A stretch of 64,000 nucleotides of DNA from Ostreococcus lucimarinus (Eukaryota), in NCBI GenBank assembly GCA_000092065.1, contig CP000583.1. One strand, written 5' to 3'. A program made the translations under genes and the position numbers. Positions 4,165-37,489 of this stretch are shown here, piece after piece (position 1 is the first letter of the stretch; the number at the start of each line of letters is the position of its first letter). The notes beneath the pieces are model-generated. The model was not told the DNA's origin, did no database searches, and saw only the letters and a list, made by a program, of their open reading frames with translations.

Positions 4165-6499
4165 ATGTTTCGCGCGGTCGCGCGCGCCTGCGCCCGGGCG
4201 CGATCGCGCGCGGACGCGCAAACGTGCGGTCGAACGCGCGCGCGCGACGAGTCGGCGGTGTGGACGTCGGTGCGCGCGACGACGCCGAGGTGTTGGCTCG
4301 GGACAAAGGTTGAACTCGCCGAAGACGACGGGACGAGCGCGAGCGCGAGAGAGGACAGCGCGAGAGAGCAGACGCTGCGCCGACGGCACGTGGCGAGCAT
4401 GCGACGCGCGCTTCGCGCGAATGATTTTGAGGGCGTGCGGAGAGAGTTTGAGGCGCTCGCGGCGTCGACGACGAAACCGGGACGCGCGGCGTGGAACGTA
4501 AACGTGCTCGCGGCGGCGCGAGCGCGAGAGCCCGAGGCGGCGCTGTCGATCGTCGAGTCAATGCTCGCGGATAATATCGGACCGGATGTGAGCACGCACA
4601 CGGCGGTGATGCAGGCTTACGTGCGCGCGGGACGATACGGGGACGCGTTTAACTGGTTGAAGATGCACCTGTACGGCGTACCGAAGGACGTTGAACAAGG
4701 CTTTGATGGCGAAGATAACGTAGAAATGGACACGAGGTATGATCTATCACATGTGATTGGGGACATGATCGATGGCGATGAGGAACACGTGTCGAAGACG
4801 CGCGTGAATAGCATGATGTTTACAACCGTGATGAACGGCGCGGCAAAGGCGGGCGACCGAGCAACGGTGCAAGAAATCGAGACGATGATGTTTGAGTTCG
4901 ATGTGGCACCTTTAGCAGATACGTTACACTGTTTGCTCAAGCTCGAGCGCGTCGCGGGGACGAGTGCATCGGTGGAATCTGTGTGGGATCGTTCCAAGCT
5001 CAAAGCGCGCGCGTTGAAAGCACATCAAGAACGCGTCGTCGCTCACGCGTTTCTGGGTCGCCAAAGAACGCAGCGCGCCGCCGAATCGCGTGCGCTCGCA
5101 GTGAAAGCATTAGAAGATCTGTACGATCGCGTGGGTCGGAAGCGCTCGGACGAAGACTTTGCGAAGCTGGAGAAGAACAATCATTCAGGGTCGAGATATG
5201 CTCGCTGGACCGGCGAACGTGGTTTAGAAGAGTACCGAAACAACTTGGTGAGCGACGACGATATCAAGAAAGTCGGAACGAAGGAAGTTTTAATAGCCAC
5301 GAACGCCGTGATGCTCGCGCATGCTGCGGTCGGTGACACGGACACAGTCAATACATGGTTTGTTCGAATGGAAGAGGATTTGGGCATCAACGCAGACGTG
5401 CGAACGTTCAACGCAGTACTACGCGCCGAATACATGCGAGATAAGATAAAGCTCGGTGTCGTGGATCATGAGCAAGCAATGATGCGATTTCAAGAAGTGA
5501 TGCTTGCGATGGAAGATCGAGAAGTCGAGCCGACGACGTACACGTTTTCGACACTTCTCTTGGCGCACGCAGAACAAAGCCACTTACCCGGTGTCGCAGA
5601 GGTTTTGAAGCTCATGCAAGAGCGAGGACTCGCGCTTGATACTACGATGTACAATATTTTATTGGGTGCTTGCGCGCGAGCGGGTGATTTAGACGCTGCG
5701 CTCAACGCGCGGGCAAGCATGGTCAAGTCTGGCATTGCCGCCGGCCCAGACACGTTCGTGCCGCTCTTCGCCGCGTGCACGAAACAGGCGGAGGAACTGG
5801 ACTTGGACGGTGATATGTTTGAATTAGATGAAGAAGTCGTTGGACCTCTGTTAGATCGCACACGAGCGACTTTAGATAGCGTGGAGTTGGATATGCTCTC
5901 AAGCAACGTCGAGCACAACACGCAGTCGTTCACGGCTTTGGTCAAAGCCAGAGGGGCTTTGGGTCAGCCAGACGCCGTGTTCGACATGATCAGCGAATTG
6001 CCAGAAAACATCGAACTCGACGAAGTCGCCATCGGCCTGAGTGTTTTGGCGGTTGCGAAGCGTGAACCAACCAAGGCTATTGCGCTCGCCGATTCCCTCA
6101 TGGACGAGTCGATGGTGCTGGATCCGTGGCTTCTCAACTGCATCATCACCGCTTACTCTCATCTCGGTCAAATCAAAGCAGCTACCGAGCGCGTGCAAGA
6201 CTTCATCAAGCGAGGCGGTGTGCCGACTGTCGCAACGTACAACGCGCTCTTCCGATGCGCCGCCCAGAGCGGCAGCTTTGCCGAATACGCCCCGCTCGTC
6301 ATGAACGAGATGTCATCGCGCGATCTCAAACCGGACAAGTACACTCGCAAATTTATCGCTGCTGTCACCGCCGGTTCATCCGTCCTCGATCGCGAGACGG
6401 CGGAAGCGCTTCTCAAAAAGTGTCCCGGCGGCGACAAGTTCTTCGTCGCCGAAGACGCCGCCGGACAGGACGACTTCGATTTCCTCGCCGACGCCGGCT

Positions 6500-6530
<31 letters not shown>

Positions 6531-6543
6531 TCTATTATTGTAA
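4165..6543 (+). CDS. Pentatricopeptide-repeat (PPR) protein with an Arg-rich, presequence-like N-terminus and a poly-Asp C-terminus
   Basis: Repeated 35-aa helical PPR-like units (HTAVMQAYVRAGRYGDAFNWL, TVMNGAAKAGDRATVQEIETMM, TYNALFRCAAQSGSFAEYAPLVMNEM, LKPDKYT). The track ORF 3724..6543 is an in-frame 5' extension through GC-rich leader; I placed the start at ATG 4165 (MFRAVARACARA). The C-terminus [12 protein letters not shown] is encoded by a (GAC)n run at 6511..6537. Confidence 0.7.
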
Positions 6544-6695: not shown

Positions 6696-8597
6696 ATGCC
6701 CTCGACCGCGTCCGACGCGCGCGAGCGCCGCGCGCGCGCGAGCGCGATGTCCAGCGCATCGTCTCCGAAGCGCCGAAGCACGCTCACGCTGCCGAGGCGC
6801 GACGCCGTGACGCGAAACACGAACAAGCTGCAATTGCCCGGTTGGGTCTCCATGCCGAACTCTGCGCTCGCGTCCTGCCTCGCGGTGCTCGCGACGAACC
6901 CGATGGACCGCGCGAAAACGATCATGCAACTCCCGGGCGTCGGCGCGTCGTGGGGCAAGAACATGCGGGAGGTGACGATGAATATGGTGAAGAAGGAAGG
7001 CGCGCTGCGCGGGCTGTACAGAGGTTTACCCGTGGCGATGGTGCGAGAGTCGTCGAAGAATGTGTTTCGAATTGGGCTGTTCTTACCGGTGCTGAAGGTG
7101 ATACACACGGATGATGATAACCCAGCACCGGCGTGGAAACGGTTCATGGCGGGATGTCTGAGCGGGGGGATCGGGGCGGTGTCGAGTAATCCGTTTGATT
7201 TGATCAAGACGCGGATGCAAGTGCCGGCGGCGATGTGCGAATACGAAAATGGAATGGTGGCGTTGAAGAAGATTTGCGCCAAGGAGGGGTGGAAGACGTT
7301 ATATAAAGGTGTGGGCGCGAGTGTTATGAGGGACATGCTCGGCTCGAGCGTGAATTTGACCGTGCAGTCCATCGCAAGCGAGGCGCTCGTGAGGAATATG
7401 ATTTTATCGCCGGGTTCGCCCGTGCTCGGCGCGCTGAGCGGCGTTTTAAGCGCGGCGGCGTCGGTGGCGGTGATGCAGCCGATCGACACGTCGCGAGCGT
7501 ACGTGTATCTCAAGCCGCACATACACAAAGATACTATTAGAGCATTTAGGTACATAGTTTTGAGGGAAGGGCCGTTGGCGTTGTACAAAGGCTCGCGCGC
7601 ACACTTTTTCCGCACCGCGCCGCACTATGCGGCAATGTTTGCGCTACTGGAGATGATCACCGGCGGTGAACGGAAGGTTTTACTGTCAAGGAACAAGAAT
7701 GTACTGGAGAACGTGCATATGTTCGACGCTCTGTCCAAGGACAAAAGAATCCGACTGGCGAGCATGGTCCAAATGAAACACTTTAAAGCGGGTGAGCAAA
7801 TCATCGGCGCCGGCGACGAAACGCCTGGGGAGATGTACATCATGACTCGTGGATGCGTCAAGATTGACCAAGCGAATAAAAAGGGGAAGAAGGGGAAGAA
7901 TACGGAAGATCAAGGGAGCGACGTCATCCATAGTGGCGGTTACTTTGGCGAATCCTACATGTTCTCCTCTGAGGCGAGCAATGAGACGGTCACGGCCGTC
8001 AACGACGTGACGTTGATGGCTGTGCCACGAGAAGCCTACGAAACGTGTCGCAAGGGCGAATTTGCTTCTGCTACTCTCTTCGACGAAGGGTTCGATGACC
8101 CTTCGAAGGAAATCGGTATGGCTTGGCGTCGGCTTCGCTACGAACGCACGTTGGCAAAGATCCCTGTTTTCGCCGACCTCGGCTCCTACGAGCGTGCCAT
8201 GGTAGTTAAACAAGCCAAACGGTTCAGTTTTAAGCCCGGTGAGAAAATCATACGCCAAGGTGAAGTTGCGGACAAGTTTTACGTCATCCTTAAGGGTTCA
8301 GCCGTTTCCACTAAATCCGACGGCGACGTCGACCACGTCGCCCCGGGATCAAAAATCCCTCCCGACCGCATCATGCGCAACTTTAGCCAGGGTCAATACT
8401 TTGGCGAGCTCGCGCTGCTTACTGGCCAGCCTCGCTTAGCAACCATCGTGGCGAACGACTCCTTGGAAGTTCTCGCCATCGATCGCGACGTCTTGAAATC
8501 GTTGCGCGAAACATTGCCGACGCTTGAAGACGAGATCATTCGCAATCTTCGCAGATTCGACCACATGGATTCATTTACCACAATGTCTATAGCGTAG
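6696..8597 (+). CDS. Mitochondrial carrier family (SLC25-like) domain fused in one ORF to two C-terminal cyclic-nucleotide-binding (cNMP) domains
   Basis: Carrier signatures PMDRAKTIMQ, PFDLIKTRMQ and PIDTSRAYVY lie in three roughly 100-aa repeats (about 6780..7690). Two cNMP-binding domains follow, about 7700..8100 (FDALSKD..GEMYIMTRGCV..GGYFGESY) and about 8130..8570 (FYVILKGSAV..GQYFGELALLTGQPRLATIVA). There is no in-frame stop and no GT..CTGAC..AG intron signature between the modules. Track ORF 6126..8597 is a 5'-extended version; start taken at ATG 6696, with 6747 as an alternative. Confidence 0.8.
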   Translation: MPSTASDARERRARASAMSSASSPKRRSTLTLPRRDAVTRNTNKLQLPGWVSMPNSALASCLAVLATNPMDRAKTIMQLPGVGASWGKNMREVTMNMVKKEGALRGLYRGLPVAMVRESSKNVFRIGLFLPVLKVIHTDDDNPAPAWKRFMAGCLSGGIGAVSSNPFDLIKTRMQVPAAMCEYENGMVALKKICAKEGWKTLYKGVGASVMRDMLGSSVNLTVQSIASEALVRNMILSPGSPVLGALSGVLSAAASVAVMQPIDTSRAYVYLKPHIHKDTIRAFRYIVLREGPLALYKGSRAHFFRTAPHYAAMFALLEMITGGERKVLLSRNKNVLENVHMFDALSKDKRIRLASMVQMKHFKAGEQIIGAGDETPGEMYIMTRGCVKIDQANKKGKKGKNTEDQGSDVIHSGGYFGESYMFSSEASNETVTAVNDVTLMAVPREAYETCRKGEFASATLFDEGFDDPSKEIGMAWRRLRYERTLAKIPVFADLGSYERAMVVKQAKRFSFKPGEKIIRQGEVADKFYVILKGSAVSTKSDGDVDHVAPGSKIPPDRIMRNFSQGQYFGELALLTGQPRLATIVANDSLEVLAIDRDVLKSLRETLPTLEDEIIRNLRRFDHMDSFTTMSIA

Positions 8598-12041: not shown

Positions 12042-12095
12042 TGCGCGGCGAAACGTCCCGGCGGTGATCTCATTGTACAAATAAATATTCTACAA

Positions 12096-12680
12096 CTAGT
12101 GATGATACGGTTCGCCGCGTAAAATCGTGTGCGCTCGATACAACGCCTCCGTCACCACCAACCTCGCCACTTGATGATTCAGCACCATCTTCGACAACCG
12201 CAGGCTCTCGTTCGCTCGATCGATCACGTCTTTCCCGTGTCCGAACGGCCCACCCAAAACGAACACCCCTCGCTCGTAGCCCTCGTCCCCGATCCTCGCC
12301 ACCAATTCCGCCACCTCCTCGCTCGACGCGTCCCGCCCGCGCTCGTCCAGCAGCACGACGTAATCCCGCGCCGTGATCGCCCGCATCACCCGCTCGCCCT
12401 CGTGAACCTTCTGCAGCTCGGTATCCTTGACGTTCTTCGGGTTTTGTTTCACCGTCTTCTCCTCGAACGGCGCGTAGCGCGCGCACCGCCGCGCGTACTC
12501 GTCGACCGCGTCGTCGACTTTCGCGCCGCCGCCCTTGCCGACGACGACGACGACGAGCGGGACCGCGCGCGTGGACCGCGCGGTCGAGGACGCGGACGAC
12601 GCCGCGCGCGCGGACGCGGCGATGCGTCGACCGCGTCGCGCGCACGCGCCGGACGCGCGCAGGAGCGCCGTCGTCGCCAT
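12096..12680 (-). CDS. rlmH: RlmH-type (SPOUT, YbeA/DUF163) rRNA pseudouridine-N3 methyltransferase with a transit-peptide-like N-terminus
   Basis: The C-terminal 150 aa of minus ORF 12096..13133 align with E. coli RlmH (VVVVGKGGGAK..YVVLLDERG..LGGPFGHGKDVIDRANESLRLSKMVLNHQVARLVVTEALYRAHTILRGEPYHH). I placed the start at Met codon 12678..12680 (MATTALLRASGACARRGRRIAASARAASS, an R/S/A-rich presequence). The upstream part of the track ORF is antisense to the APE gene leader and was judged non-coding. Confidence 0.72.
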   Translation of the reverse strand: MATTALLRASGACARRGRRIAASARAASSASSTARSTRAVPLVVVVVGKGGGAKVDDAVDEYARRCARYAPFEEKTVKQNPKNVKDTELQKVHEGERVMRAITARDYVVLLDERGRDASSEEVAELVARIGDEGYERGVFVLGGPFGHGKDVIDRANESLRLSKMVLNHQVARLVVTEALYRAHTILRGEPYHH

Positions 12681-12978
12681 GCGTCGCGCTCTGCGCGCGG
12701 CGTCGAGCGACACCGCGAGGTCGCCGCGCCGCGCGCGCGCCGACGCCGCCCCGGCGCGACCGGGCGTCCGAGCTCGTTTTTTTTCGTCGATCCGCGCGCG
12801 ACGCGACGCGACGCGATCGCGCCGTCGCGTCGACGCGCGTCGCGGTCGCGCGCGTCGTCTCGATCGTCGATTCGTTTCGCGTTCGCGATTCGAACGCCGT
12901 GCGATCGATCGCGACCGCGACCGCGACGCGCGACACACGACGACGACGACGACGGACCGACGCGCGACGACGACGGTG

Positions 12979-14046
12979 ATGCGAGCGAAACGAACGCCGT
13001 CGCCGACGGCGCGCGACGGCGCGGACGTCGCGCCGACGGGGAATAAAAAACCGAAAAAGGCGACGACGACGACGACGGTCGAGCGGAGCGACGCGGCGCG
13101 ACGGGACGCGCCGCGAGACGCGCGCGCGTTCACGGCGATCGCGTGGAACGTCGCGGGATTGCGCTCGTTTCACGAGAAATCGCTCGATCGGTTGCGAGGG
13201 GTGATCGCGGGAGAGGCGCCGGACGTGGTGATTTTGCAAGAGCACAAGCTGCAGGAGACGCACTGCGCGGCGTTTACGGAGCGGTTGAGGCGGGACTTTC
13301 CGATGTATAAGACGGTGCAGTTCGCGGTGAGCGTGGCGAAGAAGGGGTACAGTGGAGTGGTGGTGATGTGTAAGGCGGCGCGGAATGGGACGAGTGGGTC
13401 GACGCAGGGCACGTTGGACGCGATGTTCGGCGGCGGGGCGAAGGACGAGGAGGCGACGTACGACGGGCCAAAGTTGTTGGAGATTCGCGAAGGGTTGGGC
13501 GCGCGAGGATACACGGACGAGGGACGGACGATGACGCTGGAGTTTGAGGGGTTTTACCTCGTCACCGCGTACGTGCCGAACAGTGGACAAGATCTGAAGC
13601 GTTTGGATTATCGAATCGGCGAGTGGGAGCGCGACATGCGCGCGCATCTCAAAGAACTCGACGCGAAGAAACCGGTGGTGTACATGGGCGATTTGAACGT
13701 CGCGCATCTGGATTCTGATATTTGGAACGTCGGTGCGTCGCATATTAAGAAGAGCGCGGGGACGACGCCTCAAGAGCGCGAGGCTTTCGGGGTCATGCTC
13801 GAGGAGAACGACTTGCGCGACGCGTTTCGACATTTCCACGGCGACGCCGTCGGTTGGTTTTCTTATTGGAGCGTTCGCGCGGGGAATCGCCCGTTCAACA
13901 AAGGTCTTCGACTCGATTACACCTTGGCGTCGAAAAGAGTCTTCGACGGCGGCGCTGATGGCGTCGAAGTTGTGGACGCGTTCATTCTCGACAAGGTCCT
14001 TGGGTCTGACCACGCGCCAGTCGGCGTGACGCTCGCGCTCCGATGA
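12979..14046 (+). CDS. AP endonuclease, exodeoxyribonuclease III / APE1 family
   Basis: The track ORF begins at 12535; the conserved body is WNVAGLR, ILQEHK, KGYSGVVV, FYLVTAYVPNSG, MGDLNVAH, LDYTLAS and SDHAPV, colinear with human APE1 / ExoIII. The N-terminal region is K/R/T-rich (NLS-like). Start taken at ATG 12979; 12535 is an in-frame upstream alternative. Confidence 0.88.
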   Translation: MRAKRTPSPTARDGADVAPTGNKKPKKATTTTTVERSDAARRDAPRDARAFTAIAWNVAGLRSFHEKSLDRLRGVIAGEAPDVVILQEHKLQETHCAAFTERLRRDFPMYKTVQFAVSVAKKGYSGVVVMCKAARNGTSGSTQGTLDAMFGGGAKDEEATYDGPKLLEIREGLGARGYTDEGRTMTLEFEGFYLVTAYVPNSGQDLKRLDYRIGEWERDMRAHLKELDAKKPVVYMGDLNVAHLDSDIWNVGASHIKKSAGTTPQEREAFGVMLEENDLRDAFRHFHGDAVGWFSYWSVRAGNRPFNKGLRLDYTLASKRVFDGGADGVEVVDAFILDKVLGSDHAPVGVTLALR

Positions 14047-21260: not shown

Positions 21261-22373
21261 TTACATGGATATTCTCCCGCGCCGTCCCCTTGTGCGCAGC
21301 ATCGCGAGCGCTAACGCTCCGACGGCCGCGCCTCCGAGATGACCAGCGTGCGCCACACCAGACCCACGCGAATCTTGAATGCCCACGATATCTCTCATGA
21401 GGAATAAACCTCCTAGTAGTATGCTAGGCACTGGTACGATCGCGTAAAGGTAAATCGTCCGCAGTGGGTAAAGCAACACCTCGAACGCCACGATCGCGTT
21501 CACCGCCCCGCTCGCTCCGAGAGCGGCGGGAGTGAAGTAATACCCTCGCTTCGCACCGCTATCTTCTACGAACCTAGCGACGTACGCGTCGAGACGGTCG
21601 AAGAAGTTCCCTCGGCCCTCCTTGTACCGCTCCATTCGTTTGCGTCGTTGCCTCGCGCACCACGCCACGTGCGCGGCCGAAGCCCCGACGCCCCCGACGC
21701 AATACAGCGTGAGCAAATACCGACCTCCGAATCGCTCGCACACGCTTCGCCCGAAAAAGTACAGCGCGATCATGTTCATTCCCAGATGCGTCAAATCAAA
21801 ATGAGAAAACGCCGAAGTCAACATCGTGTGCCATCGCCCGTGCGCGAGCGCCTCCTCGCTCACCATGAAATTCTTCCGCATGAACCGCCCGTCCTCGGTC
21901 GTGGCCCAGGCGTAATACACCGCCCCATTCAGTCCTATCAGCGCCCACAGCGCGCGATCGCCGTCCGCGGATCCACCGAGCGCGTCCCAACCGCGTCCCG
22001 GCGGCGGCGCGCCGCGGTACGCGCGTCTCGTCCCGTCCCACCCCCCGGTCCTCCCCGCCTCCCTTCGCGCGCCTTCGAACAGCGACGACGACGCGTGGGA
22101 CGCGCGCGCGGACGTCGCCGTCGTCGCCGTCGCCATCGCGCGTCCCGCGGCCGTCGTCGCGCGCGGCCGTCGTCCAGTCATCGTCTCCGTCTCAACCACC
22201 CTCGCGCCCGCGCGCGCGCCCGCGCGCGCCACCTCGCGCGCGACGCGCGTCGCCGTCGACGCGCGCATGATTTTAGACGACCGCGCGCTCGAGCGAGCGA
22301 ACGCGCGCGCGCGCGAGCGACGGACGCGTCGTGAAGTCGCACTACAAATCATCCGCGTCGAGCTAAAATACAT
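21261..22373 (-). CDS. Rhomboid-family intramembrane serine protease (PARL/Pcp1-like) with a long R/A/S-rich N-terminal presequence
   Basis: Catalytic serine in ALGASGAVNAIV and histidine in AHAGHLGGAAVG, within the conserved TM architecture. Start Met uncertain. Confidence 0.68.
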   Translation of the reverse strand: MYFSSTRMICSATSRRVRRSRARAFARSSARSSKIMRASTATRVAREVARAGARAGARVVETETMTGRRPRATTAAGRAMATATTATSARASHASSSLFEGARREAGRTGGWDGTRRAYRGAPPPGRGWDALGGSADGDRALWALIGLNGAVYYAWATTEDGRFMRKNFMVSEEALAHGRWHTMLTSAFSHFDLTHLGMNMIALYFFGRSVCERFGGRYLLTLYCVGGVGASAAHVAWCARQRRKRMERYKEGRGNFFDRLDAYVARFVEDSGAKRGYYFTPAALGASGAVNAIVAFEVLLYPLRTIYLYAIVPVPSILLGGLFLMRDIVGIQDSRGSGVAHAGHLGGAAVGALALAMLRTRGRRGRISM

Positions 22374-23097
22374 CCCAGCCTCCCTCGCCTCGCCTCGCGC
22401 GCCTCGCGCGCCGCGCCGCGCGCGCTACAAGAACTTCTTCCTCGGTCGTCCGTACCGATCGTCGTTCGCGTCCTGCGATCGTCGTCGTCGTCGTCAGTCG
22501 TCGGTCGATTCGATTTAGGTTCGTTCGATCCCTCGCCCGTTCGCCGCGTCGCGCCCGCGCGCGCGCGTCGCCCCCGCGCGCGCGCCGCCCGCGCGCGCGC
22601 ACGCCTCGCGTCGCCTCGCGTCGCGCACGCACGAAATCCCTGACGGCGCCGCGATAGATGAGCGCCGGGACGAAGACGCCGAAGACGGCGAAGAGCCCGA
22701 TCGTTCGCGGCGTCAGGCGGAACGCGCGCTCGATCGTCTCGCGCGCCGCGCCGTTGGCCTCGATGAAGGCGTTGGGCTTGAGCCCGGTGGGGTCGGCGCC
22801 GGCCATCGCGCGCGACGGCGACGCGACGACGCGCGGGGGTGTGCGAGCGCCAGAGCGGGACGCGGCGGGGACGACGGGACGACGGCGCCCGCGGACGCGA
22901 TCGCGCCCGCGCGTCGGCGACGAGACGACGCGCGCGGACGTCGGCGACGACGCGACGCGCGCGGACCCGCGCGCGGGCGCGACGCGACGACGCGGGGGGG
23001 AGAGGATTCGGCGTCGGGATTCGGGACGGGGACGTTCGCGTCGCCGAACGGCGTCGACGCGCCGGGCGACGGCGACGCGGGCGCGGAGAATAAGAGT

Positions 23098-24396
23098 TTG
23101 AGCTCGCTCGGGGTGTCGCCGGGAGATCTGGCGCGGCGCGCGGTGAAGGCGCGCGGCGAGGGGGACGGCGGCGCGCGAGGGACGGCGACGACGCGACGAG
23201 ACGAGACGAGGGCGCGCGAACGCGAGCGCGAACGCGAGCGCGACGAGGGAGACGCGAGCGCGATGGAGTCGGACGCGACGAGGACGCGCGACGAGGACGC
23301 GGGCGCGATGCCGAGGACGATGCGAGAGGCGCTCGGGGAGTGGCGGGGCGAGTTGGAGGCGGCGGAGGCGGCGTTTTTGGCGATTCACGCGTTGATGCTG
23401 GATTCGGGGGCGAAGACCGCGGGAGAGATTGAATTGCGCGATGGACTCGCGCGGCGAGGGTGTTACTCGGCGCGCTATGCCGTCGGAGCGCGCGGGAGAG
23501 AGGATACGGTGACGTGCTCGGTGCGCGCGCAGCCGGTGGAGTCGCGACTGTCGGTGTTCGGGACGCTGGAATCGGACGCGGGATCGGCTGGCGTCGCGTA
23601 CGCGACGCTGATTCAAGCCAGCGATTACGTGGACGAGGGGGGGTCGATCACGCCCGAGGGTTGTCGCGCGCTGTGGGCGAAAGTGAAAGAAGCGATGACT
23701 ACGAAGCTCTTCGAAGCGGCCGAGGCGCAGTTGGCGGGGATCCTTTCGCCCGGCACGCTCATGTCTCTTCCCACGGACGTCAAACGTAGAATCGCCGAAA
23801 ATCTAGACGCGTACGGGTTGGCTTACTGCGCGTGCACGTGCAAAGAACTCCGCGCGGTGTGCTCGGACGACGAGCTTTGGACGCGGCTTTTACAGACGGA
23901 TTTCGACGTGCCTCCGATGCCAACTGGAATTTCTTCTCGCTCGTTGTACAACAAGCACGCGATGCGTAGATCGGCCGAGCGAGAGGAACGATTACGGATG
24001 GAGTCTTACCATCCGATGCCTGGTCGTTTGCCGCGTCATGGCTTCATGCCCGATCCCGATCGCGACATTTACGCCGGAATTCCCGGCCACGTGCCCGGCA
24101 TCATCGGCGGCGATTACGATTTGTGGCCCGGCGGTCTCAACCCGAATCCGCCGCCGCGCCCGATCCCTGGTTACGGTAGAGGAGGATTAGGTGGACCCGG
24201 ACGACCGAGAGGAGGCTGGCCCGGCGGAGGGCCTCCTTTCCCGCCGCAACCGGGCGGGTTGCCTTACAATCCCGATCCCGACGCCGATTTGCGAAACCCT
24301 CCCGACATTCCCGGGCGAGGCCGAGGCGGATTCCCGAGCATGCCTCCCAATCCGGGATGGGACGGACGACCACGACCGCCGCCTGATTTCTTTTAG
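23098..24396 (+). CDS. F-box protein with a Gly/Pro-rich C-terminal tail (FBXO7/PI31-like architecture)
   Basis: F-box motif LMSLPTDVKRRIAENLDAYGLAYCACTCKELRAVCSDDELWTRLL. The C-terminus has dense PG/RG/PDPD repeats. The N-terminal part is Arg/Glu-rich and the start is uncertain (internal Met candidates MESDATR, MPRTMREALGEW). Confidence 0.55.
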   Translation: MSSLGVSPGDLARRAVKARGEGDGGARGTATTRRDETRARERERERERDEGDASAMESDATRTRDEDAGAMPRTMREALGEWRGELEAAEAAFLAIHALMLDSGAKTAGEIELRDGLARRGCYSARYAVGARGREDTVTCSVRAQPVESRLSVFGTLESDAGSAGVAYATLIQASDYVDEGGSITPEGCRALWAKVKEAMTTKLFEAAEAQLAGILSPGTLMSLPTDVKRRIAENLDAYGLAYCACTCKELRAVCSDDELWTRLLQTDFDVPPMPTGISSRSLYNKHAMRRSAEREERLRMESYHPMPGRLPRHGFMPDPDRDIYAGIPGHVPGIIGGDYDLWPGGLNPNPPPRPIPGYGRGGLGGPGRPRGGWPGGGPPFPPQPGGLPYNPDPDADLRNPPDIPGRGRGGFPSMPPNPGWDGRPRPPPDFF

Positions 24397-32953: not shown

Positions 32954-34039
32954 ATGAAGGTGCGTCCATCGACGGGCGACGCGGGATGACGATGGGGATG
33001 ATTACGGCGCGCGACGACGGACGGCGCGCGACGACGGACGCGCGACGACGCGCGCGGACGCGACGGCGGACGCGAACGACGCGGGTTTGCGCGACGCGAC
33101 GATCGGGGACTGACGACGACGACGACGACGACGCGCGTGATCCACAGCTCAACATCGCGAACCCGCAGACCGGGGCGCAGAAGAAGATCGAGATCGTCGA
33201 TGAGAACAAGCTCCGATGCTTCTACGATAAGCGCATCTCCGCGGAGGTGGAGGGCGATGAACTCGGTGATGTGCGTGTTAGGGCTTTGCGATGCGACGCG
33301 ACGCGATGAAGCCGAGGACGCGAACGATGCGCGCGCGCGGACGCGACGGTGGTGCGCGTGGATGATTGATGAAGATAATGATGATCGTGAATTCGTACTG
33401 ACCGCGCGTGTGATGCGCTCGTTTCGTCGATAGGAATGGAAAGGCTACATCTTTAAGATCATGGGTGGCAACGACAAGCAAGGGTTTGGGATGAAGCAAG
33501 GCGTGTTGACGAACCAACGCGTGTTCTTGCTCATGTCTCAGGGCACGAGTGGTTTCCGTGGGAACGGTCGCCGTAAGGGTGAGCGCCGTCGTAAGGCGTG
33601 CCGTGGTTGCATCGTCTCCCAAGACATCGCTGTTTTGAACTTGCTCATCGTCAAGCAAGGCGACGCCGAGGTTCCGGGTTTGACGGATACCGAAGTCGCG
33701 CGCTTGCGTGGTCCGAAGCGTGCGAGCAAGATTCGCAAGCTCTTCGCGTTAACGAAGGAAGACGACGTTCGTCAGTACGTGAACACGTACCGCCGTGAGT
33801 TTGAATCCGCGACTGGCAAGAAGAAGTCCAAGGCGCCGAAGATTCAACGTCTCGTCACCCCGCTCGTCATCAAGCGCAAGCACGCGCGCGCGGCGGCGAA
33901 GAAAGTTAAGCAAGCCAAGTCCAAGGCGGAAGCCGCGGAATACCACAAGGTCCTTGCCCTCCGCATCCGAGAACAACGCGAGCGCAGAAGCGAATCCCTC
34001 GCCAAGCGCCGTGCGTCCTCCGTCGCGAAGAAGGCGTAG
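32954..34039 (+). CDS. RPS6: 40S ribosomal protein S6 (eS6), three exons
   Basis: Exons 32954..32959 (MK), 33148..33270 and 33434..34039. Introns 32960..33147 and 33271..33433 both start GTGCGT, carry CTGAC 30 to 35 nt before the AG, and end CAG/TAG. The spliced product [88 protein letters not shown].. is colinear with eS6 throughout. Confidence 0.93.
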
Positions 34040-34284
34040 GCTGAGGCAAAGATTTCTACTAGTGAAATGGATGGGATTTGGTGATTTAGTGTACTCAGAG
34101 ACGGAGATTGATCGCGACGCCGGTGACGCATCGCGAAACAAAGCTTAGCAGCTTACTATTCTTCGCACGCGACTTGTAATCGATGCGACGAAAATTCAAA
34201 AACACGCCGACGCGCATCAAACGCCCCCTCCGGAAAGTGGAATTCATTTTGAAACCAACCGTCGGCATCACACATCGCCGCGCG

Positions 34285-34914
34285 ATGGATTCGCTCGCCT
34301 CGCGCGCTGTCGCGTCGACGACCGTGTTAAAGACCGGTCCACGATCGATGCGCTCGCCGCGTCTGTCGATGCGACGCGCGGGTTCGTCGCGCGACAAAGT
34401 GTTAACTCGAATGGGACACGGCGACTCGTCGATGAGCGAAGACGAAGACGATTACGCGAGCGACATCAATCGCACGCCGTACTACACCCAAACCGAGCGC
34501 AAGTTTTTAGACATGATCACGATTCAGGCCTTGAAGAACTTGCTGCACTTTTTGCAGGAGACGAACGGCGAGATGCACATGTATTTGCACAACCACATCA
34601 CCGAAAATCCGTTTGAGCTCAGCGAGACGAGGTCGATGGAGGATTGGTTGACAGATCTCGCGGCGAAACCGTTGACGCGGGTGAACGATCCGCGGCGTTC
34701 ATCCGTGCCCGGGCCGGCGATGGACGAGGAGGCGTTGAGAAAGGGGCGAGAGATATCGCCGAGAGATTTAGTTGAGAGGATATTACAAGCGCGCTCAAAC
34801 GTCGCGGAAGAACTAACCAGAGAGCTGAGCGCGCCTCGTCTGGCGGTGAAAAACAATAAAATATTTACCGCGGCGTTGGCGTCGACGTTTCGATTGAGTG
34901 ATGACGACGTTTGA
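34285..34914 (+). CDS. RBCX: RbcX-like RuBisCO assembly chaperone with a plastid-transit-like N-terminus
   Basis: The core ERKFLDMITIQALKNLLHFLQETNGEMHMYLHNH.. and DLVERILQARSNVAEEL align with cyanobacterial and plant RbcX (YLTYQAVR..LSETNP..WL..; ELVLRILTVRENLAEG). N-terminus MDSLASRAVASTTVLKTGPRSMRSPRLSMRRAGSS; ATG at 34285 (the track ORF starts at 34183). Confidence 0.65.
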   Translation: MDSLASRAVASTTVLKTGPRSMRSPRLSMRRAGSSRDKVLTRMGHGDSSMSEDEDDYASDINRTPYYTQTERKFLDMITIQALKNLLHFLQETNGEMHMYLHNHITENPFELSETRSMEDWLTDLAAKPLTRVNDPRRSSVPGPAMDEEALRKGREISPRDLVERILQARSNVAEELTRELSAPRLAVKNNKIFTAALASTFRLSDDDV

Positions 34915-35128
34915 TGACGACGTTTAGTTTAGGAAAACATCCGCGCGCGCAAAGTAGCCACGCGCGCGGGGATTTAAATTAATGTGACCTGTCGCGTTCC
35001 AACAGCGCATCGTTCGCGCGTCGTCGATTCGTCCGCGCGCGCGTCGACGCGCTGTCGCTCGTCTCGTTTCAGTATAGTACATCTAAAAGTTTCAAGTTTC
35101 TAGTCGACAAAACGTCGATGAAAAAAGT

Positions 35129-37489
35129 CTACGCGAGATAAACGTACATTTTTCGATCGCTCGGATCCCTCTCGATGTATTCACGCTCAATCAAGGTCTC
35201 GATGTGTTTTTTGATATCCGCGGGTGTGGGCATGAAACGGTTCCTGACTTGAGCCGTGACTTCCATGACGATGCTGTTGTGATCGAGCCGCTTCTTCGCC
35301 TTCATCACGCGCACAATGGTGGCCTCGATCTGCGGCTTACGATCGTCTACGATTTTGCTTTTCGTCAACGATCTTTCGTGATCGTTCTCTCGCTTGGCAG
35401 AAATGGACAAGATTTTGACCTTGGTCGTCTTAGATGAGAAGTCTCGATTGACTTGAAACGAGTCTCCCAAGCTCACATCTTTCCCAGCGGGCAACTTTGT
35501 GAGAATATTTTTCCCCTTGACGCACGAAAGCGCTTGCAAGCAACCCTTGAGCTCGTCGCCTATCATTCCAGTAAGATCCGAAATATCTTTTGTGGTCAAA
35601 GTCTCGTGCGTGTTGAAAAGCATGAGGACACACATGTGCAGCGTCGACGCAGAAATTTCATATTCACCGCTCGCAAACCTAGCCTTAATGTCGGCCCGGC
35701 CCATGTTCGCCTGCCAAGTGAGCTTTCGACCGGCGTGACGCGAGAGGTAGAAATTTTCAAAAACCTTGCACGTCCTCTCGCATTCATGGGGTAAGTTGAT
35801 CGGAGTTTTATGCACCTTCAAGGGCCAGGCTCCGGTGGTCAACACCGAGACATTTACTTCCATCGATCCCGAGCCTCTTGAGTAAACACCTTCAAACTCC
35901 CTCGTCAAGTCACCCGAAGTGAGCATGTCGTTGAACATGCCCTCCATTCTACTCGTGAATGTAAATCCACAATCGTCCTTGAGTTTACCGATGAACGCGA
36001 GCTCGTTATCGTCGCTTGCGGAGCGCTTGTTTAGCAACCTCTTCGACAAGTGTTGGCGATAATAATTCTCAAACACATCCTTCTCGTGAAATAGGTGGAA
36101 GAGCCCCATCGATCGGTTCAGGATGATCTCCAGTTCGCTCTGACTCGCGTCTTTTGACGATTTCCTCAACATGTGATCCAAATAAAGCGACAAATACTCG
36201 GGTGATCTAGGATTCAAGTTTGCGACGAGTTGATACGCCTGATTGCACTGCGACTCGATGAGGCGATTATTTGCAAACGCCTCGATCAAGATTGTGTCAT
36301 ACTTCTCCTTGAATTTGAAAAGCTCTTCGACAAACTGTGTCGGATTCTTTTCATTTTCTAAATCATTCACGATCGACTTGCCGATTTCCTTAAGATGATT
36401 GAACATCACGTCTGGAATACCCTCGAGATCGTCCATCGTCGAAAACAGCGAGTACATGCGACGCAAGTTTTCGATCTGGTTCGCTCGAAGCATGTGCACC
36501 ATGCCACTCGTAGCGTTATGCAATAGTGATTGTGACATCTCCTTCAATAACTGGTTGCGCGCTTGCTCAAGTAAAAGGCCTGTTGTTCGAGGAGCCATGT
36601 AAGCTTCACTTCGGTCCTTCTCTTGCGCCAGTCTCGCCTCCGCCATCCTCAAGAACGTCGGGCAGTCGTCGATATCGATTCGTTTCTGCGCCACCGCCTT
36701 GTAGTAAGATCTTGTCTCATCGAGCATTTTAACTTCGAACTCATCTACGTAAACAGATTCGTGCAAAGTGAGTAACATGGACGTCACCTTTTGCAACGCG
36801 TCCCTATCCACGCTCTCGCCGTCGCGCTCGCGGCGGATCAAATCTAACATGCACGAGTGCATCCGTCGTCTAATGCGTGGATTATTTACCACACACTCCC
36901 TCCAAAGCGTTATTACGAGATCCCCCACGGGTTCTAAGTTCGCGTTCCCGCTCCGCTTCAAGTGCACGCGATCGAGATAGATGAAGACGTCGGTCAGCAT
37001 TTGCGCGCTCTTTCTGTGCCGCGCAAATCGCGTCTCCAAATCCTTCAAAAATTCAACATCCCCCACCACGTCCGCGATCTTACTCGCCACGTGCAAGCAC
37101 AAATGATCTGTTACCGCGTCGCTTATGGTGTTATACAGCGCATCACCCTGTTTCCGAAGCACCAACGCGTACGCCTTACCGTACAGCTCCTCGTACGACA
37201 ACCCTTCGCTGCTCAGGTTCAACAGCTCCGTCGTCGCCGTTCGAAGCGTTCGAAGCGTCGTCTCCACGAACGACGGATCGGCGTCCACGCGATGTCTGAA
37301 CGGTTCCAACGCCGTCGTCGTCGCCGTCGTCGCCGCGCGCGAGCGCGCGCGCGACGCCTGTCCCGACGCGTCGCGTTTCCGTCCCACGACGCCGTCGCGC
37401 TCGCGCTCGCGCGCGCGCGCGTCGCTCGCCGCGCGCGCGCGCGCGTCGTCGCCGTCGACCGCGTCGCGCGCGTTCGCCGCGCGCGTCAT
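35129..37489 (-). CDS. Cullin (CUL4-like) with a C-terminal neddylation/winged-helix domain
   Basis: The N-terminal helical bundle matches CUL4 (GLSYEELYGKAYALVLRKQGDALY; MLTDVFIYLDRVHL). The C-terminus IVRVMKAKKRLDHNSIVMEVTAQVRNRFMPTPADIKKHIETLIEREYIERDPSDRKMYVYLA includes the conserved neddylation Lys context (VMKAKK). R/A-rich N-terminal extension. Confidence 0.82.
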   Translation of the reverse strand: MTRAANARDAVDGDDARARAASDARARERERDGVVGRKRDASGQASRARSRAATTATTTALEPFRHRVDADPSFVETTLRTLRTATTELLNLSSEGLSYEELYGKAYALVLRKQGDALYNTISDAVTDHLCLHVASKIADVVGDVEFLKDLETRFARHRKSAQMLTDVFIYLDRVHLKRSGNANLEPVGDLVITLWRECVVNNPRIRRRMHSCMLDLIRRERDGESVDRDALQKVTSMLLTLHESVYVDEFEVKMLDETRSYYKAVAQKRIDIDDCPTFLRMAEARLAQEKDRSEAYMAPRTTGLLLEQARNQLLKEMSQSLLHNATSGMVHMLRANQIENLRRMYSLFSTMDDLEGIPDVMFNHLKEIGKSIVNDLENEKNPTQFVEELFKFKEKYDTILIEAFANNRLIESQCNQAYQLVANLNPRSPEYLSLYLDHMLRKSSKDASQSELEIILNRSMGLFHLFHEKDVFENYYRQHLSKRLLNKRSASDDNELAFIGKLKDDCGFTFTSRMEGMFNDMLTSGDLTREFEGVYSRGSGSMEVNVSVLTTGAWPLKVHKTPINLPHECERTCKVFENFYLSRHAGRKLTWQANMGRADIKARFASGEYEISASTLHMCVLMLFNTHETLTTKDISDLTGMIGDELKGCLQALSCVKGKNILTKLPAGKDVSLGDSFQVNRDFSSKTTKVKILSISAKRENDHERSLTKSKIVDDRKPQIEATIVRVMKAKKRLDHNSIVMEVTAQVRNRFMPTPADIKKHIETLIEREYIERDPSDRKMYVYLA

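What the first reader, a model, noticed from the sequence alone, without database searches (positions are those of the whole stretch)
6696..8597. Mitochondrial-carrier domain fused to two cyclic-nucleotide-binding domains in one continuous ORF
An SLC25-type carrier (three repeats carrying P-x-[DE]-x-x-[KR]-x-[RQ]-type signatures PMDRAKTIMQ / PFDLIKTRMQ / PIDTSRAYVY) runs directly into two canonical cNMP-binding domains (FGE..A and PRLATIVA phosphate-binding cassette motifs). There is no intervening stop and no GT..CTGAC..AG intron signature at the junction. Established knowledge: regulated carriers are known with N-terminal EF-hand calcium sensors (Aralar/SCaMC). A carrier regulated by cAMP/cGMP through covalently attached CNB domains is not an architecture I can place among described carriers. 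If real, it would couple cyclic-nucleotide signalling directly to metabolite transport across an organellar membrane. The third carrier repeat is degenerate, which may indicate altered gating.
Basis: partly seen in the sequence, partly recalled or inferred. Interest (0 to 1): 0.78.

Follow-up and report, generated by a model that had tools for sequence, protein, structure and literature searches.

The report
Mitochondrial-type carrier fused to cyclic-nucleotide sensor
A picoalgal (Ostreococcus-type) gene really does encode a mitochondrial-family metabolite carrier joined to two cyclic-nucleotide-binding domains, a conserved but uncharacterised design in which cAMP/cGMP probably takes the place that calcium sensors hold in related carriers.

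Summary
Window 6696-8597(+) is one uninterrupted 633-codon ORF. Three Mito_carr repeats and two cNMP_binding domains each pass Pfam's cut-off on their own. It is not a gene-model artefact. The same fusion, without gaps at the junction, occurs in O. tauri (XP_022838497.1, syntenic), other Ostreococcus lineages, Micromonas (including complete MMETSP transcripts) and a third marine clade.

Three refinements:
- The third carrier repeat is not degenerate: PxDxxR is invariant and the repeat scores 50 bits. What is missing is the cytoplasmic salt-bridge network.
- Only CNB-B has a canonical phosphate-binding cassette in Ostreococcus. CNB-A has lost its arginine there but keeps it in Micromonas.
- The carrier belongs to the OAC1/SLC25A34-35 clade. 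Its nearest relatives carry EF-hands at the same C-terminal position, so the cyclic-nucleotide module looks like a replacement of a Ca2+ sensor.

Most likely it is a cNMP-modulated organellar anion or metabolite carrier whose sensor faces the cytosol/intermembrane space. That is inferred, not shown. No paper describing the architecture was found, and public annotations obscure it. I rate it a new variant of a known kind (sensor-fused SLC25 carriers), interest about 0.62. Substrate, organelle, ligand (cAMP or cGMP) and direction of regulation are unknown.

The parts
6696..8597 (+). Complete CDS (633 aa plus TAG) of the carrier-CNB fusion protein
   Evidence: It is 100% identical to metagenomic protein P0001, and orthologues start at the same Met.
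6696..6842 (+). N-terminal extension (res 1-49). Rich in R/S/A, net charge +8, poorly conserved, predicted disordered. Possibly an organellar targeting sequence.
   Evidence: Composition. Amino-acid identity is 38-62% between Ostreococcus lineages with the highest dN. pLDDT is below 50. The targeting role is an inference.
6849..7082 (+). Carrier repeat 1 (H1-h12-H2). Matrix-gate motif PMDRAK at 6900-6917; contact point I is R117-E118.
   Evidence: Pfam 48.1 bits, UCP1 alignment, conservation.
7125..7391 (+). Carrier repeat 2 (H3-h34-H4). Motif PFDLIK at 7191-7208; contact point II is R212-D213.
   Evidence: Pfam 71.9 bits. R212 and D213 are invariant in 33/33.
7419..7658 (+). Carrier repeat 3 (H5-h56-H6). 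Motif PIDTSR at 7479-7496; contact point III is R306.
   Evidence: Pfam 50.5 bits. P262, D264, R267 and R306 are invariant.
7659..7730 (+). Conserved linker (TGGERKVLLSRNKNVLENVHMFDA) that continues helix H6 into CNB-A. G323, E325, R326, N333 and F343 are invariant.
   Evidence: AF2 predicts one continuous helix over residues 300-338 (medium confidence). dN/dS is about 0.10.
7776..8042 (+). CNB-A beta-barrel. Its phosphate-binding cassette FGESYMFSSEASNETVTA (7944-7997) lacks the Arg.
   Evidence: Pfam 49.3 bits. Arg is absent in 7/7 Ostreococcus-clade sequences and present in 26/26 others. It is the fastest-evolving folded module, at 49-72% aa identity.
8100..8213 (+). Interdomain helices of the PKA-R type (B/C helix of CNB-A and N-terminal helices of CNB-B). 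W477, R481, E499 and R500 are invariant.
   Evidence: Helices 469-488 and 497-506 appear in the model. The PKA RI-alpha tandem aligns over residues 478-624.
8226..8510 (+). CNB-B beta-barrel with a canonical cassette, FGELALLTGQPRLATIVA (8400-8453).
   Evidence: Pfam 67.3 bits. G570, A573, P579, R580, T583 and A586 are invariant in 33/33.
8517..8594 (+). C-terminal helix and tail, PTLEDEIIRNLRRFDHMDSFTTMSIA. It is the most conserved segment of the protein. The likely role is a lid for CNB-B, and possibly a docking element.
   Evidence: Identity is 91-100% among Ostreococcus lineages although synonymous sites are saturated. F627, M630 and the terminal A633 are invariant in 33/33. The role is inferred.

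Best explanation
The gene encodes a nuclear-encoded SLC25 (mitochondrial carrier family) transporter of the OAC1/SLC25A34-35-like clade. Its sixth transmembrane helix runs through a short conserved helical linker straight into a PKA-regulatory-subunit-type tandem of cyclic-nucleotide-binding domains.

Both termini of SLC25 carriers lie on the cytosolic/intermembrane-space side (established topology). The sensor therefore reads cytosolic cAMP or cGMP.

In Ostreococcus only CNB-B keeps a complete phosphate-binding cassette. CNB-A has lost the phosphate-binding Arg and probably acts as a relay between CNB-B and the carrier.

Proposed mechanism (inferred):
1. Nucleotide binding to CNB-B rearranges its lid/C-terminal helix and the interdomain helices, as in PKA-R.
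2. The change is passed through CNB-A and the rigid H6 linker to the cytoplasmic gate of the carrier.
3. In this clade that gate has lost its salt-bridge network, so it would be especially sensitive to an external clamp.
4. The result is cNMP-dependent opening or closing of transport of a small anionic metabolite, of the oxaloacetate/PEP/dicarboxylate/sulfate type or an amino acid.

Evolution: the CNB tandem occupies the position where the nearest relatives carry EF-hand pairs, so a Ca2+ sensor was exchanged for a cNMP sensor in the ancestor of Ostreococcus and Micromonas.

Shown: domain content, continuity, conservation, purifying selection, and the identity of the relatives. Inferred: ligand, topology, organelle, substrate, and that binding controls transport.
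For: - Single ORF; all five modules exceed the Pfam cut-offs.
- The carrier half aligns end to end with UCP1/UCP2 (E=4e-24). The CNB half aligns with the PKA RI-alpha tandem (E=2e-24; Foldseek E=4e-16).
- The fusion is collinear in 33 orthologues from three clades, with invariant linker residues.
- Relatives have complete MMETSP transcripts with both modules: P0008, and P0157/P0158 from Micromonas polaris.
- Synteny PPR / fusion / Ndc1 / tRNA-U5-methyltransferase holds in O. tauri chromosome 3 and in Tara scaffolds.
- Purifying selection acts on every module: dN/dS is 0.06-0.13 for the carrier, about 0.15-0.18 for CNB-A and 0.05-0.16 for CNB-B, with dS near saturation.
- Transport machinery is kept: the matrix network PxDxx[KR] is present in all three repeats, and R117, R212 and R306 at the three contact points are invariant.
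- The CNB-B cassette is invariant.
- Nearest non-fusion relatives carry C-terminal EF-hands. P0050, at 50% identity, shares the derived motifs of the fusion clade.
- The named relatives beyond those are oxaloacetate carriers and SLC25A34. IMG assigns the KO 'SLC25 protein 34/35'.
- AF2 predicts H6 and the linker as one helix, residues 300-338.
- A review reports modular rhodopsins in Ostreococcus lucimarinus homologous to the algal ones that carry cyclase effector domains, so a cNMP source may exist (PMC7693036). Whether the Ostreococcus proteins carry the cyclase domain was not checked.
Against: - There is no experimental evidence for cNMP binding, transport or coupling.
- The AF2 interdomain geometry is uncertain (pTM 0.50), and the conserved tail is modelled at pLDDT below 50.
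- One of the two sites is degenerate in Ostreococcus. In the third clade CNB-B has FGG instead of FGE. The sensor is therefore evolving and could be losing its ligand.
- The residue after the cassette Arg varies (L/S/G/V/I/R/Q), so cAMP versus cGMP cannot be called.
- Loss of the cytoplasmic network is shared with the EF-hand sister P0050, so it is not specifically linked to the CNB module.
- Contact point II is R-D, the signature usually linked with amino-acid carriers. Oxaloacetate carriers and SLC25A34 have R-[TAV] there. Substrate inference from the clade is therefore weak.
- The organelle is unknown. Some SLC25 members are plastidial or peroxisomal (own knowledge).
Confidence: 0.55

Rival explanations
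1. Membrane-anchored cNMP receptor or scaffold. The carrier domain mainly tethers a PKA-R-like module to an organellar membrane. The module controls a partner protein, for example by sequestering a kinase, rather than controlling transport.
For: The CNB tandem is most similar to PKA regulatory subunits, and IMG names the protein 'cAMP-dependent protein kinase regulator'. The cytoplasmic gate network of the carrier is eroded. The extreme C-terminal tail is invariant, which would fit a partner-binding peptide.
Against: There is no RIIa/dimerisation-docking domain and no RRxS/A-type inhibitor sequence between H6 and CNB-A; the linker is only about 20 residues. The substrate-site arginines and all three matrix-gate motifs are invariant, and the carrier is the most constrained large module (dN/dS 0.06-0.13, 84-88% identity). 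A mere anchor would not need that.
Confidence: 0.15
2. The CNB domains no longer sense cyclic nucleotides. They bind another ligand, as trypanosomatid PKA-R binds nucleosides, or they are constitutive structural domains like the CNB-homology domains of KCNH channels.
For: CNB-A has lost the cassette Arg in all Ostreococcus lineages, and CNB-B has lost the cassette Glu in the third clade. PDB relatives include cAMP-independent PKA-R proteins bound to inosine or guanosine.
Against: CNB-B in this protein keeps every hallmark residue (F-G-E-L-A...P-R-x-A-T-x-x-A), and its Arg is invariant in 33/33. Micromonas-type orthologues keep both cassettes canonical.
Confidence: 0.15
3. Annotation or assembly artefact: two neighbouring genes (a carrier and a PKA-R-like gene) read as one ORF.
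For: Such chimeras exist. P0318 is a carnitine-carrier fragment joined to a complete PKA RII, including its RIIa domain; I judge it a merged gene model.
Against: Here there is no stop, frame change or spacer. H6 is followed within about 10 residues by the N-terminal helix of CNB-A. The junction is conserved and gap-free in independent genomes, metagenomes and complete transcripts of three clades.
Confidence: 0.02

Closest known systems
Ca2+-regulated SLC25 carriers: ATP-Mg/Pi carriers (SCaMC/APC, SLC25A23-25) and aspartate/glutamate carriers (Aralar/citrin, SLC25A12/13)
   Same: An SLC25 carrier domain covalently joined to a soluble second-messenger sensor on the intermembrane-space side. In APC the sensor controls transport through a linker helix, the 'locking pin' (PMC12410006).
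   Different: Here the sensor is C-terminal rather than N-terminal, and it is a tandem CNB module rather than EF-hands. The carrier belongs to a different clade (OAC1/SLC25A34-35-like, not AAC-like or AGC). Regulation is untested.
Carriers with C-terminal EF-hands in the same clade (e.g. Balamuthia KAL6053934.1, Spizellomyces SPPG_05734, Cyanophora, diatoms; MMETSP protein P0050). I found no description of them in the literature.
   Same: They are the closest relatives of the carrier half: 35-43% identity, and 50% for P0050. They share the H2 motif R-E-[GS]-S-K-N. Their sensor domain attaches at the same point after H6.
   Different: They carry EF-hand pairs instead of CNB domains. Apart from P0050, they keep part of the cytoplasmic network and the YNQP motif, and have R-[SA] rather than R-D at contact point II.
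Yeast oxaloacetate carrier OAC1 and vertebrate SLC25A34/35
   Same: They are the nearest named or characterised subfamily of the carrier half (the IMG KO name). Arg is conserved at contact points II and III, and the overall fold is the same. SLC25A34 is reported as a PEP importer (bioRxiv 10.64898/2026.05.26.727879).
   Different: They have no appended domain. Identity is only about 24-31%. Contact point I is Y-Q rather than R-E, contact point II is R-[TAV] rather than R-D, and the third matrix-gate position is not basic.
Regulatory subunits of cAMP-dependent protein kinase (PKA RI/RII) and PKG tandem CNB-A/B
   Same: Two consecutive CNB domains with PKA-R-type interdomain helices. They are the best sequence and fold matches for residues about 335-630.
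   Different: The fusion has no dimerisation/docking domain and no kinase inhibitor sequence. It is fused to a membrane transporter, and CNB-A is degenerate in Ostreococcus.
Other cNMP-modulated membrane transport proteins: CNG/HCN/MloK1/SthK channels, and the sperm Na+/H+ exchanger SLC9C1 (own knowledge)
   Same: A C-terminal cytosolic CNB domain is coupled through a helical linker to the last transmembrane helix of a transport domain. SthK and MloK1 CNBDs are detectable sequence matches.
   Different: The membrane folds are unrelated and those proteins are tetrameric or dimeric assemblies. SLC25 carriers work as monomers by alternating access. I found no SLC25 example in the literature.

Membership tests
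SLC25 / mitochondrial carrier family | Three tandem repeats of about 100 residues, each matching Mito_carr (PF00153) | tested here: met
   The three repeats score 48.1, 71.9 and 50.5 bits individually against a cut-off of 22.3. The whole protein gives E=5.5e-46.
SLC25 / mitochondrial carrier family | Matrix salt-bridge motif P-x-[DE]-x-x-[KR] on H1, H3 and H5 | tested here: met
   PMDRAK, PFDLIK and PIDTSR. Each is conserved in every orthologue that covers the position; the H3 and H5 motifs are invariant in 33/33.
SLC25 / mitochondrial carrier family | Cytoplasmic salt-bridge motif [FY]-[DE]-x-x-[KR] on H2, H4 and H6 | tested here: not met
   By alignment to UCP1 the motifs read F-L-P-V-L, Q-S-I-A-S and L-E-M-I-T. 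Only 1 of 6 charged positions is kept, and the loss holds in every orthologue covering those positions. This feature varies in strength among bona fide carriers, so it does not exclude membership.
SLC25 / mitochondrial carrier family | Location in the mitochondrial inner membrane with N- and C-termini in the intermembrane space | not testable with these tools
   There is only an R/S/A-rich, fast-evolving N-terminal extension. Mitochondrion versus plastid envelope or peroxisome needs localisation experiments.
OAC1 / SLC25A34-35 subfamily | Closest named relatives and orthology-level similarity | tested here: inconclusive
   Beyond the EF-hand group, the named relatives are oxaloacetate carriers and SLC25A34, and IMG assigns the KO name 'SLC25 protein 34/35'. 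Identity is only 24-31%, however, and contact-point residues differ. No phylogeny against all SLC25 subfamilies was made.
Cyclic-nucleotide-binding domain (PF00027) proteins | Beta-barrel matching the cNMP_binding profile | tested here: met
   CNB-A scores 49.3 bits and CNB-B 67.3 bits against a cut-off of 27.5. The AF2 secondary structure shows two beta-barrels.
Cyclic-nucleotide-binding domain (PF00027) proteins | Phosphate-binding cassette F-G-E-[LI]-A-L-x(4)-P-R-[AS]-A-[TS] with the Glu (ribose) and the Arg (phosphate) | tested here: met
   Met for CNB-B: FGELALLTGQPRLAT, with R580 invariant. Not met for CNB-A in this protein: FGESYMFSSEASNET has Ser in place of Arg. CNB-A does meet it in Micromonas-type orthologues.
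Cyclic-nucleotide-binding domain (PF00027) proteins | Actual binding of cAMP or cGMP | not testable with these tools
   Needs a binding assay on recombinant protein.
PKA regulatory subunit | N-terminal dimerisation/docking domain (RIIa) and a pseudosubstrate/inhibitor site upstream of CNB-A | tested here: not met
   There is no RIIa hit (compare the chimera P0318, which has one). The linker TGGERKVLLSRNKNVLENV contains no RRx[SA] site. The protein is therefore not a PKA-R, despite the IMG name.
Ca2+-regulated carriers (Aralar, SCaMC/APC) | N-terminal EF-hand regulatory domain | tested here: not met
   There are no EF-hand hits. The N-terminal 49 residues are disordered.

The most novel reading that the evidence does not exclude
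This is the first cyclic-nucleotide-gated member of the SLC25 family. In abundant marine picoalgae, a cytosolic cNMP signal, possibly produced by light-regulated rhodopsin-cyclases, directly opens or closes an organellar anion or metabolite carrier. The carrier's own cytoplasmic salt-bridge gate has been lost, and the C-terminal sensor and its invariant tail functionally replace it. The C-terminal 'sensor slot' of this carrier clade is modular, taking EF-hands in many other eukaryotic lineages and CNB domains in Mamiellophyceae.
Probability: 0.3. Interest if true: 0.8.

Novelty: new variant of a known kind. Interest (0 to 1): 0.62.

Why it matters
The 2025 SLC25 review I consulted describes only one kind of built-in sensor, N-terminal Ca2+-binding EF-hand domains, and it questions that role for the aspartate/glutamate carriers.

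A carrier with a covalently attached cAMP/cGMP sensor would show that second messengers other than Ca2+ can act directly on organellar metabolite exchange. It would also give a compact, intron-free, genetically tractable test case: O. tauri can be transformed (own knowledge).

The same data reveal a broad carrier group with C-terminal EF-hands, for which I found no description in the literature. This suggests a modular sensor position after H6 that could be used to study how SLC25 gates are controlled.

Ostreococcus and Micromonas are major marine primary producers. A cNMP-controlled step in mitochondrial or plastid carbon or nitrogen exchange could therefore matter for their light/dark metabolism.

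Tried and rejected
1. Gene-model artefact. Rejected: the ORF is continuous, the junction is conserved, complete transcripts exist in relatives, and synteny holds.

2. Independent fusions in other lineages. I ran an exhaustive HMMER search of 1.84 billion representatives, then local phmmer with each half against all fetched proteins. The only outside protein with both modules was P0318. It has two repeats of a carnitine/acylcarnitine-type carrier plus a full PKA RII with its RIIa domain. I regard it as a merged model of neighbouring genes. From memory, SLC25A20 and PRKAR2A are neighbours in vertebrate genomes. Only the best 150 representatives were visible, so weaker fusions could have been missed.

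3. 'Third repeat degenerate'. Rejected on profile score and invariance.

4. Foldseek against AFDB50, to find the architecture in UniProt. The library was unavailable. The PDB search only returned PKA/PKG tandems.

5. Literature searches for the architecture found nothing relevant. Terms tried: 'mitochondrial carrier' + 'cyclic nucleotide-binding domain'; Mito_carr + cNMP_binding; SLC25 + 'cyclic nucleotide-binding' + fusion; 'mitochondrial carrier family' + Ostreococcus + cAMP; 'C-terminal EF-hand'. Subscription journals are not covered.

6. Naming the organism of the third clade and of P0050. No names were on record. The third-clade locus has 51% GC, compatible with Bathycoccus but unproven.

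7. dN/dS per domain. Synonymous sites are near or beyond saturation between Ostreococcus lineages, so the ratios are rough.

8. Reading interdomain contacts from the AF2 model. Not possible, because only summary confidence is returned and pTM is 0.50.
Full report
**1. What is in the sequence**

Window 6696-8597(+) is a single ORF of 633 codons ending in TAG. The frame stays open upstream to 6126. That stretch overlaps the 3' end of the preceding PPR gene (stop at 6543) and translates to low-complexity Arg-rich sequence. Orthologues start at or near the ATG at 6696, so this is the start.

The window is a gene-dense eukaryotic nuclear region of about 60% GC. Its neighbours include a PPR protein, an Ndc1 nucleoporin, a tRNA U5-methyltransferase, and Brix, rhomboid and CDF-transporter genes.

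The order PPR / fusion gene / Ndc1 / methyltransferase is the same on Ostreococcus tauri chromosome 3 (CAID01000003.2) and on Tara Oceans scaffolds of other Ostreococcus lineages. The window therefore comes from an Ostreococcus-type picoalga. Its protein is 100% identical to metagenomic P0001, 81% to P0002 and 75% to O. tauri XP_022838497.1.

**2. Domain content**

Pfam finds Mito_carr (E=5.5e-46, three stretches) and cNMP_binding (E=2.3e-31, two stretches). Scanned separately, all five modules exceed the curated cut-offs:

| Module | Bits | Cut-off |
|---|---|---|
| Carrier repeat 1 | 48.1 | 22.3 |
| Carrier repeat 2 | 71.9 | 22.3 |
| Carrier repeat 3 | 50.5 | 22.3 |
| CNB-A | 49.3 | 27.5 |
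| CNB-B | 67.3 | 27.5 |

Against solved structures, residues 53-321 align end to end with UCP1 (E=4e-24) and UCP2. Residues 478-624 align with the tandem CNB-A/B of PKA RI-alpha (E=2e-24). The AF2 model has mean pLDDT 72 and pTM 0.50. It shows six long helices plus matrix helices, then two beta-barrels. Its best Foldseek matches are PKA/PKG tandem CNB structures.

**3. It is one gene, and it is conserved**

A 33-sequence alignment of full-length homologues is collinear through the junction. H6 ends at ...LLEMITG. An invariant G-x-E-R...N...F linker follows, and then CNB-A.

There are three clades:
- Ostreococcus-type, at 70-82% identity.
- Micromonas-type, at about 48-51% identity. This clade includes M. 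polaris MMETSP transcripts and a truncated M. commoda gene model.
- A third marine clade at about 46% identity and 51% GC, with no organism on record.

Complete transcriptome ORFs with both modules (P0008, P0157/P0158) show a single mRNA in relatives.

All modules are under purifying selection between Ostreococcus lineages. The ratios are rough because dS is about 1 or saturated.

| Module | dN/dS | aa identity |
|---|---|---|
| Carrier | 0.06-0.13 | 84-88% |
| CNB-A | about 0.15-0.18 | 49-72% |
| CNB-B | 0.05-0.16 | 72-81% |
| C-terminal 23 residues | not estimable in most pairs (dS saturated) | 91-100% |

A real chimeric artefact turned up for contrast. P0318 joins two repeats of a carnitine-carrier-like protein to a complete PKA RII, including its RIIa docking domain. 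The window protein has neither a docking domain nor an inhibitor site.

**4. Anatomy of the carrier half**

The matrix-gate motif P-x-D-x-x-[KR] is present in all three repeats and conserved in every orthologue that covers it. Only the residues after PIDTSR (AYVYLKP instead of T-R-x-YNQP) are unusual, and they are themselves invariant.

The real anomaly is on the other side. Aligned to UCP1, the cytoplasmic-network positions [FY][DE]xx[KR] read F-L-P-V-L on H2, Q-S-I-A-S on H4 and L-E-M-I-T on H6. One of six charged residues is left, and the loss holds in every orthologue covering those positions.

In the accepted alternating-access model this network closes the carrier toward the intermembrane space (PMC12410006). 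A weak network is associated with uniport rather than strict exchange (own knowledge of the Robinson/Kunji symmetry analysis).

The three contact points of the common substrate site carry R117-E118, R212-D213 and R306-T307, all conserved in every orthologue covering them.

**5. Which carriers are the relatives**

I ran an exhaustive HMMER search of 1.84 billion representatives followed by Pfam scans. After the fusion family itself, the closest carrier halves (35-43% identity) belong to proteins of about 500-550 residues. These have two to four EF-hands after the carrier domain, that is, at the C-terminus.

They come from Amoebozoa (Balamuthia, Vermistella), Holozoa (Syssomonas), glaucophytes (Cyanophora, Gloeochaete), diatoms and many chytrids. 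I found no paper describing C-terminal EF-hand carriers.

One MMETSP protein, P0050, has C-terminal EF-hands yet is 50% identical to the window carrier. It shares the fusion clade's derived features: R-D at contact point II, QPxDTSRAYVYLxP, and the missing cytoplasmic network. Its nearest relatives are the CNB fusions themselves.

The simplest reading is that the ancestor carried C-terminal EF-hands, and that a PKA-R-type CNB tandem replaced them in the lineage leading to Ostreococcus and Micromonas. The gate erosion came before that swap.

Further out, the named relatives are fungal oxaloacetate carriers (OAC1 type) and vertebrate SLC25A34. This agrees with the IMG KO name 'SLC25 protein 34/35'. 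SLC25A34 was recently reported to import phosphoenolpyruvate (bioRxiv 10.64898/2026.05.26.727879).

The contact points differ from those relatives, however. Contact point I is R-E here against Y-Q there. Contact point II is R-D here against R-[TAV] there. R-[DE] at contact point II is the signature usually linked with amino-acid carriers (own knowledge). The substrate can therefore only be narrowed to a small anionic or zwitterionic metabolite.

**6. Anatomy of the sensor half**

CNB-B has a textbook phosphate-binding cassette, FGELALLTGQPRLATIVA. G570, A573, P579, R580, T583 and A586 are invariant in all 33 sequences.

CNB-A reads FGESYMFSSEASNETVTA in the window. The phosphate-binding Arg is Ser, and all seven Ostreococcus-clade sequences lack the Arg. 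All 26 Micromonas-type and third-clade sequences keep FGE...R. Conversely, the third clade has FGG in CNB-B.

Every lineage thus keeps at least one complete site. In Ostreococcus it is CNB-B. CNB-A there is still a constrained fold, which fits a relay role.

The residue after the cassette Arg varies, so cAMP versus cGMP cannot be predicted.

The interdomain helices carry invariant W477, R481, E499 and R500. They align with the PKA-R B/C helix and with the Y/W-E-R capping region.

The last 26 residues are the most conserved part of the whole protein. F627, M630 and the C-terminal Ala are invariant. AF2 does not place the last ten residues confidently. This tail is unexplained. A lid-plus-docking ('pin') function is my guess.

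**7. How it most likely works**

Shown: one polypeptide, an intact substrate site and matrix gate, one intact cNMP site, a conserved rigid-looking linker, and a sensor attached where relatives have Ca2+ sensors.

Established knowledge: SLC25 termini face the intermembrane space, which small solutes reach from the cytosol. EF-hand domains of ATP-Mg/Pi carriers regulate transport from that side through a linker helix.

Inferred:
1. cNMP binding to CNB-B rearranges the lid and the interdomain helices.
2. The change passes through CNB-A and the H6 extension to the cytoplasmic gate.
3. That gate lacks its own salt bridges, so the sensor switches transport on or off.

The direction of regulation, the ligand, the substrate and the organelle are open. 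A review reports that O. lucimarinus has modular rhodopsins homologous to the cyclase-bearing ones of other green algae (PMC7693036). A cNMP source, possibly light-controlled, is therefore plausible. I did not check whether the Ostreococcus proteins themselves carry a cyclase domain. I give this explanation about 0.55.

**8. Rivals**

- A membrane-anchored cNMP receptor that regulates a partner rather than transport (0.15). The strongly constrained transport residues and the lack of PKA-R docking and inhibitor elements argue against it.
- CNB domains that bind something else, or nothing (0.15). One site is degenerate, but CNB-B is canonical.
- A merged gene model (0.02). Effectively excluded.

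A non-mitochondrial location is possible under any of these. The fast-evolving, R/S/A-rich, +8-charged N-terminal 49 residues look like a targeting sequence, but the organelle cannot be assigned.

**9. Novelty and score**

The protein is already in public databases under names that hide its architecture:
- 'RmlC-like jelly roll fold' in O. tauri.
- 'cAMP-dependent protein kinase regulator' or 'SLC25 protein 34/35' in IMG.
- A 266-residue 'partial' carrier in M. commoda.

Five literature searches and two SLC25 reviews gave no description of a CNB-fused carrier. Subscription journals are not covered.

It is a new variant of a known kind: sensor-fused SLC25 carriers, and CNB-coupled transport proteins such as CNG/HCN channels and SLC9C1. 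It is not a new category. I score interest at 0.62. The fusion is solidly real and conserved in ecologically dominant algae, and it opens a testable question about second-messenger control of organellar transport. All functional claims are still inference.

Noticed in passing
Related proteins P0204, P0206, P0208, P0216, P0221, P0260, P0448, P0461, P0464 and others (not in the window): There is a widespread SLC25 sub-branch with 2-4 EF-hands at the C-terminus rather than the N-terminus. It occurs in Amoebozoa, chytrids, diatoms, glaucophytes and holozoan protists and shares the H2 motif R-E-[GS]-S-K-N. I found no description of it in the literature searched. Public names vary ('Tricarboxylate transport protein', 'Kidney mitochondrial carrier protein 1', 'EF-hand domain-containing protein').
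   Followed up: partly
P0050 / locus L005:289-1941: A single MMETSP transcript of unknown organism encodes a carrier 50% identical to the window carrier but with C-terminal EF-hands instead of CNB domains. It is the apparent sister of the whole CNB-fusion clade and a singleton in the database.
   Followed up: partly
P0318 (not in the window): This 597-aa protein has two repeats of a carnitine/acylcarnitine-type carrier followed by a complete PKA RII subunit (RIIa plus 2 CNB). It is almost certainly a merged model of two neighbouring genes, and a warning for domain-architecture surveys.
   Followed up: yes
window 8517-8594 (residues 608-633): The extreme C-terminal tail is the most conserved segment of the protein: 91-100% identity while synonymous sites are saturated. 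F627, M630 and the terminal Ala are invariant in 33/33 orthologues. No known motif was recognised, and AF2 gives low confidence for the last 10 residues.
   Followed up: partly
window 4174-6543 (+): The upstream PPR-repeat gene ends in a run of nine Asp followed by LLL, encoded by a GAC repeat at about 6505-6531. Its stop lies only 152 bp before the carrier gene's ATG.
   Followed up: no
window 12073-14013 (-): A 647-aa ORF in a 65% GC stretch has no Pfam match at E<=0.001. Several long ORFs overlap it on both strands, as expected for GC-rich DNA.
   Followed up: no
window 1-64000: GC content in 2-kb windows swings between 0.52 and 0.71, for example 0.713 at 22001-24000 and 0.522 at 34001-36000. 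I did not examine whether this tracks genes, intergenic regions or foreign DNA.
   Followed up: no
O. tauri L003:4001-5884; M. commoda XP_002501272.1: Public annotations obscure the architecture. The O. tauri orthologue is named 'RmlC-like jelly roll fold'. The M. commoda model is a 266-residue 'partial' carrier, although longer metagenomic members of its cluster have both modules.
   Followed up: yes
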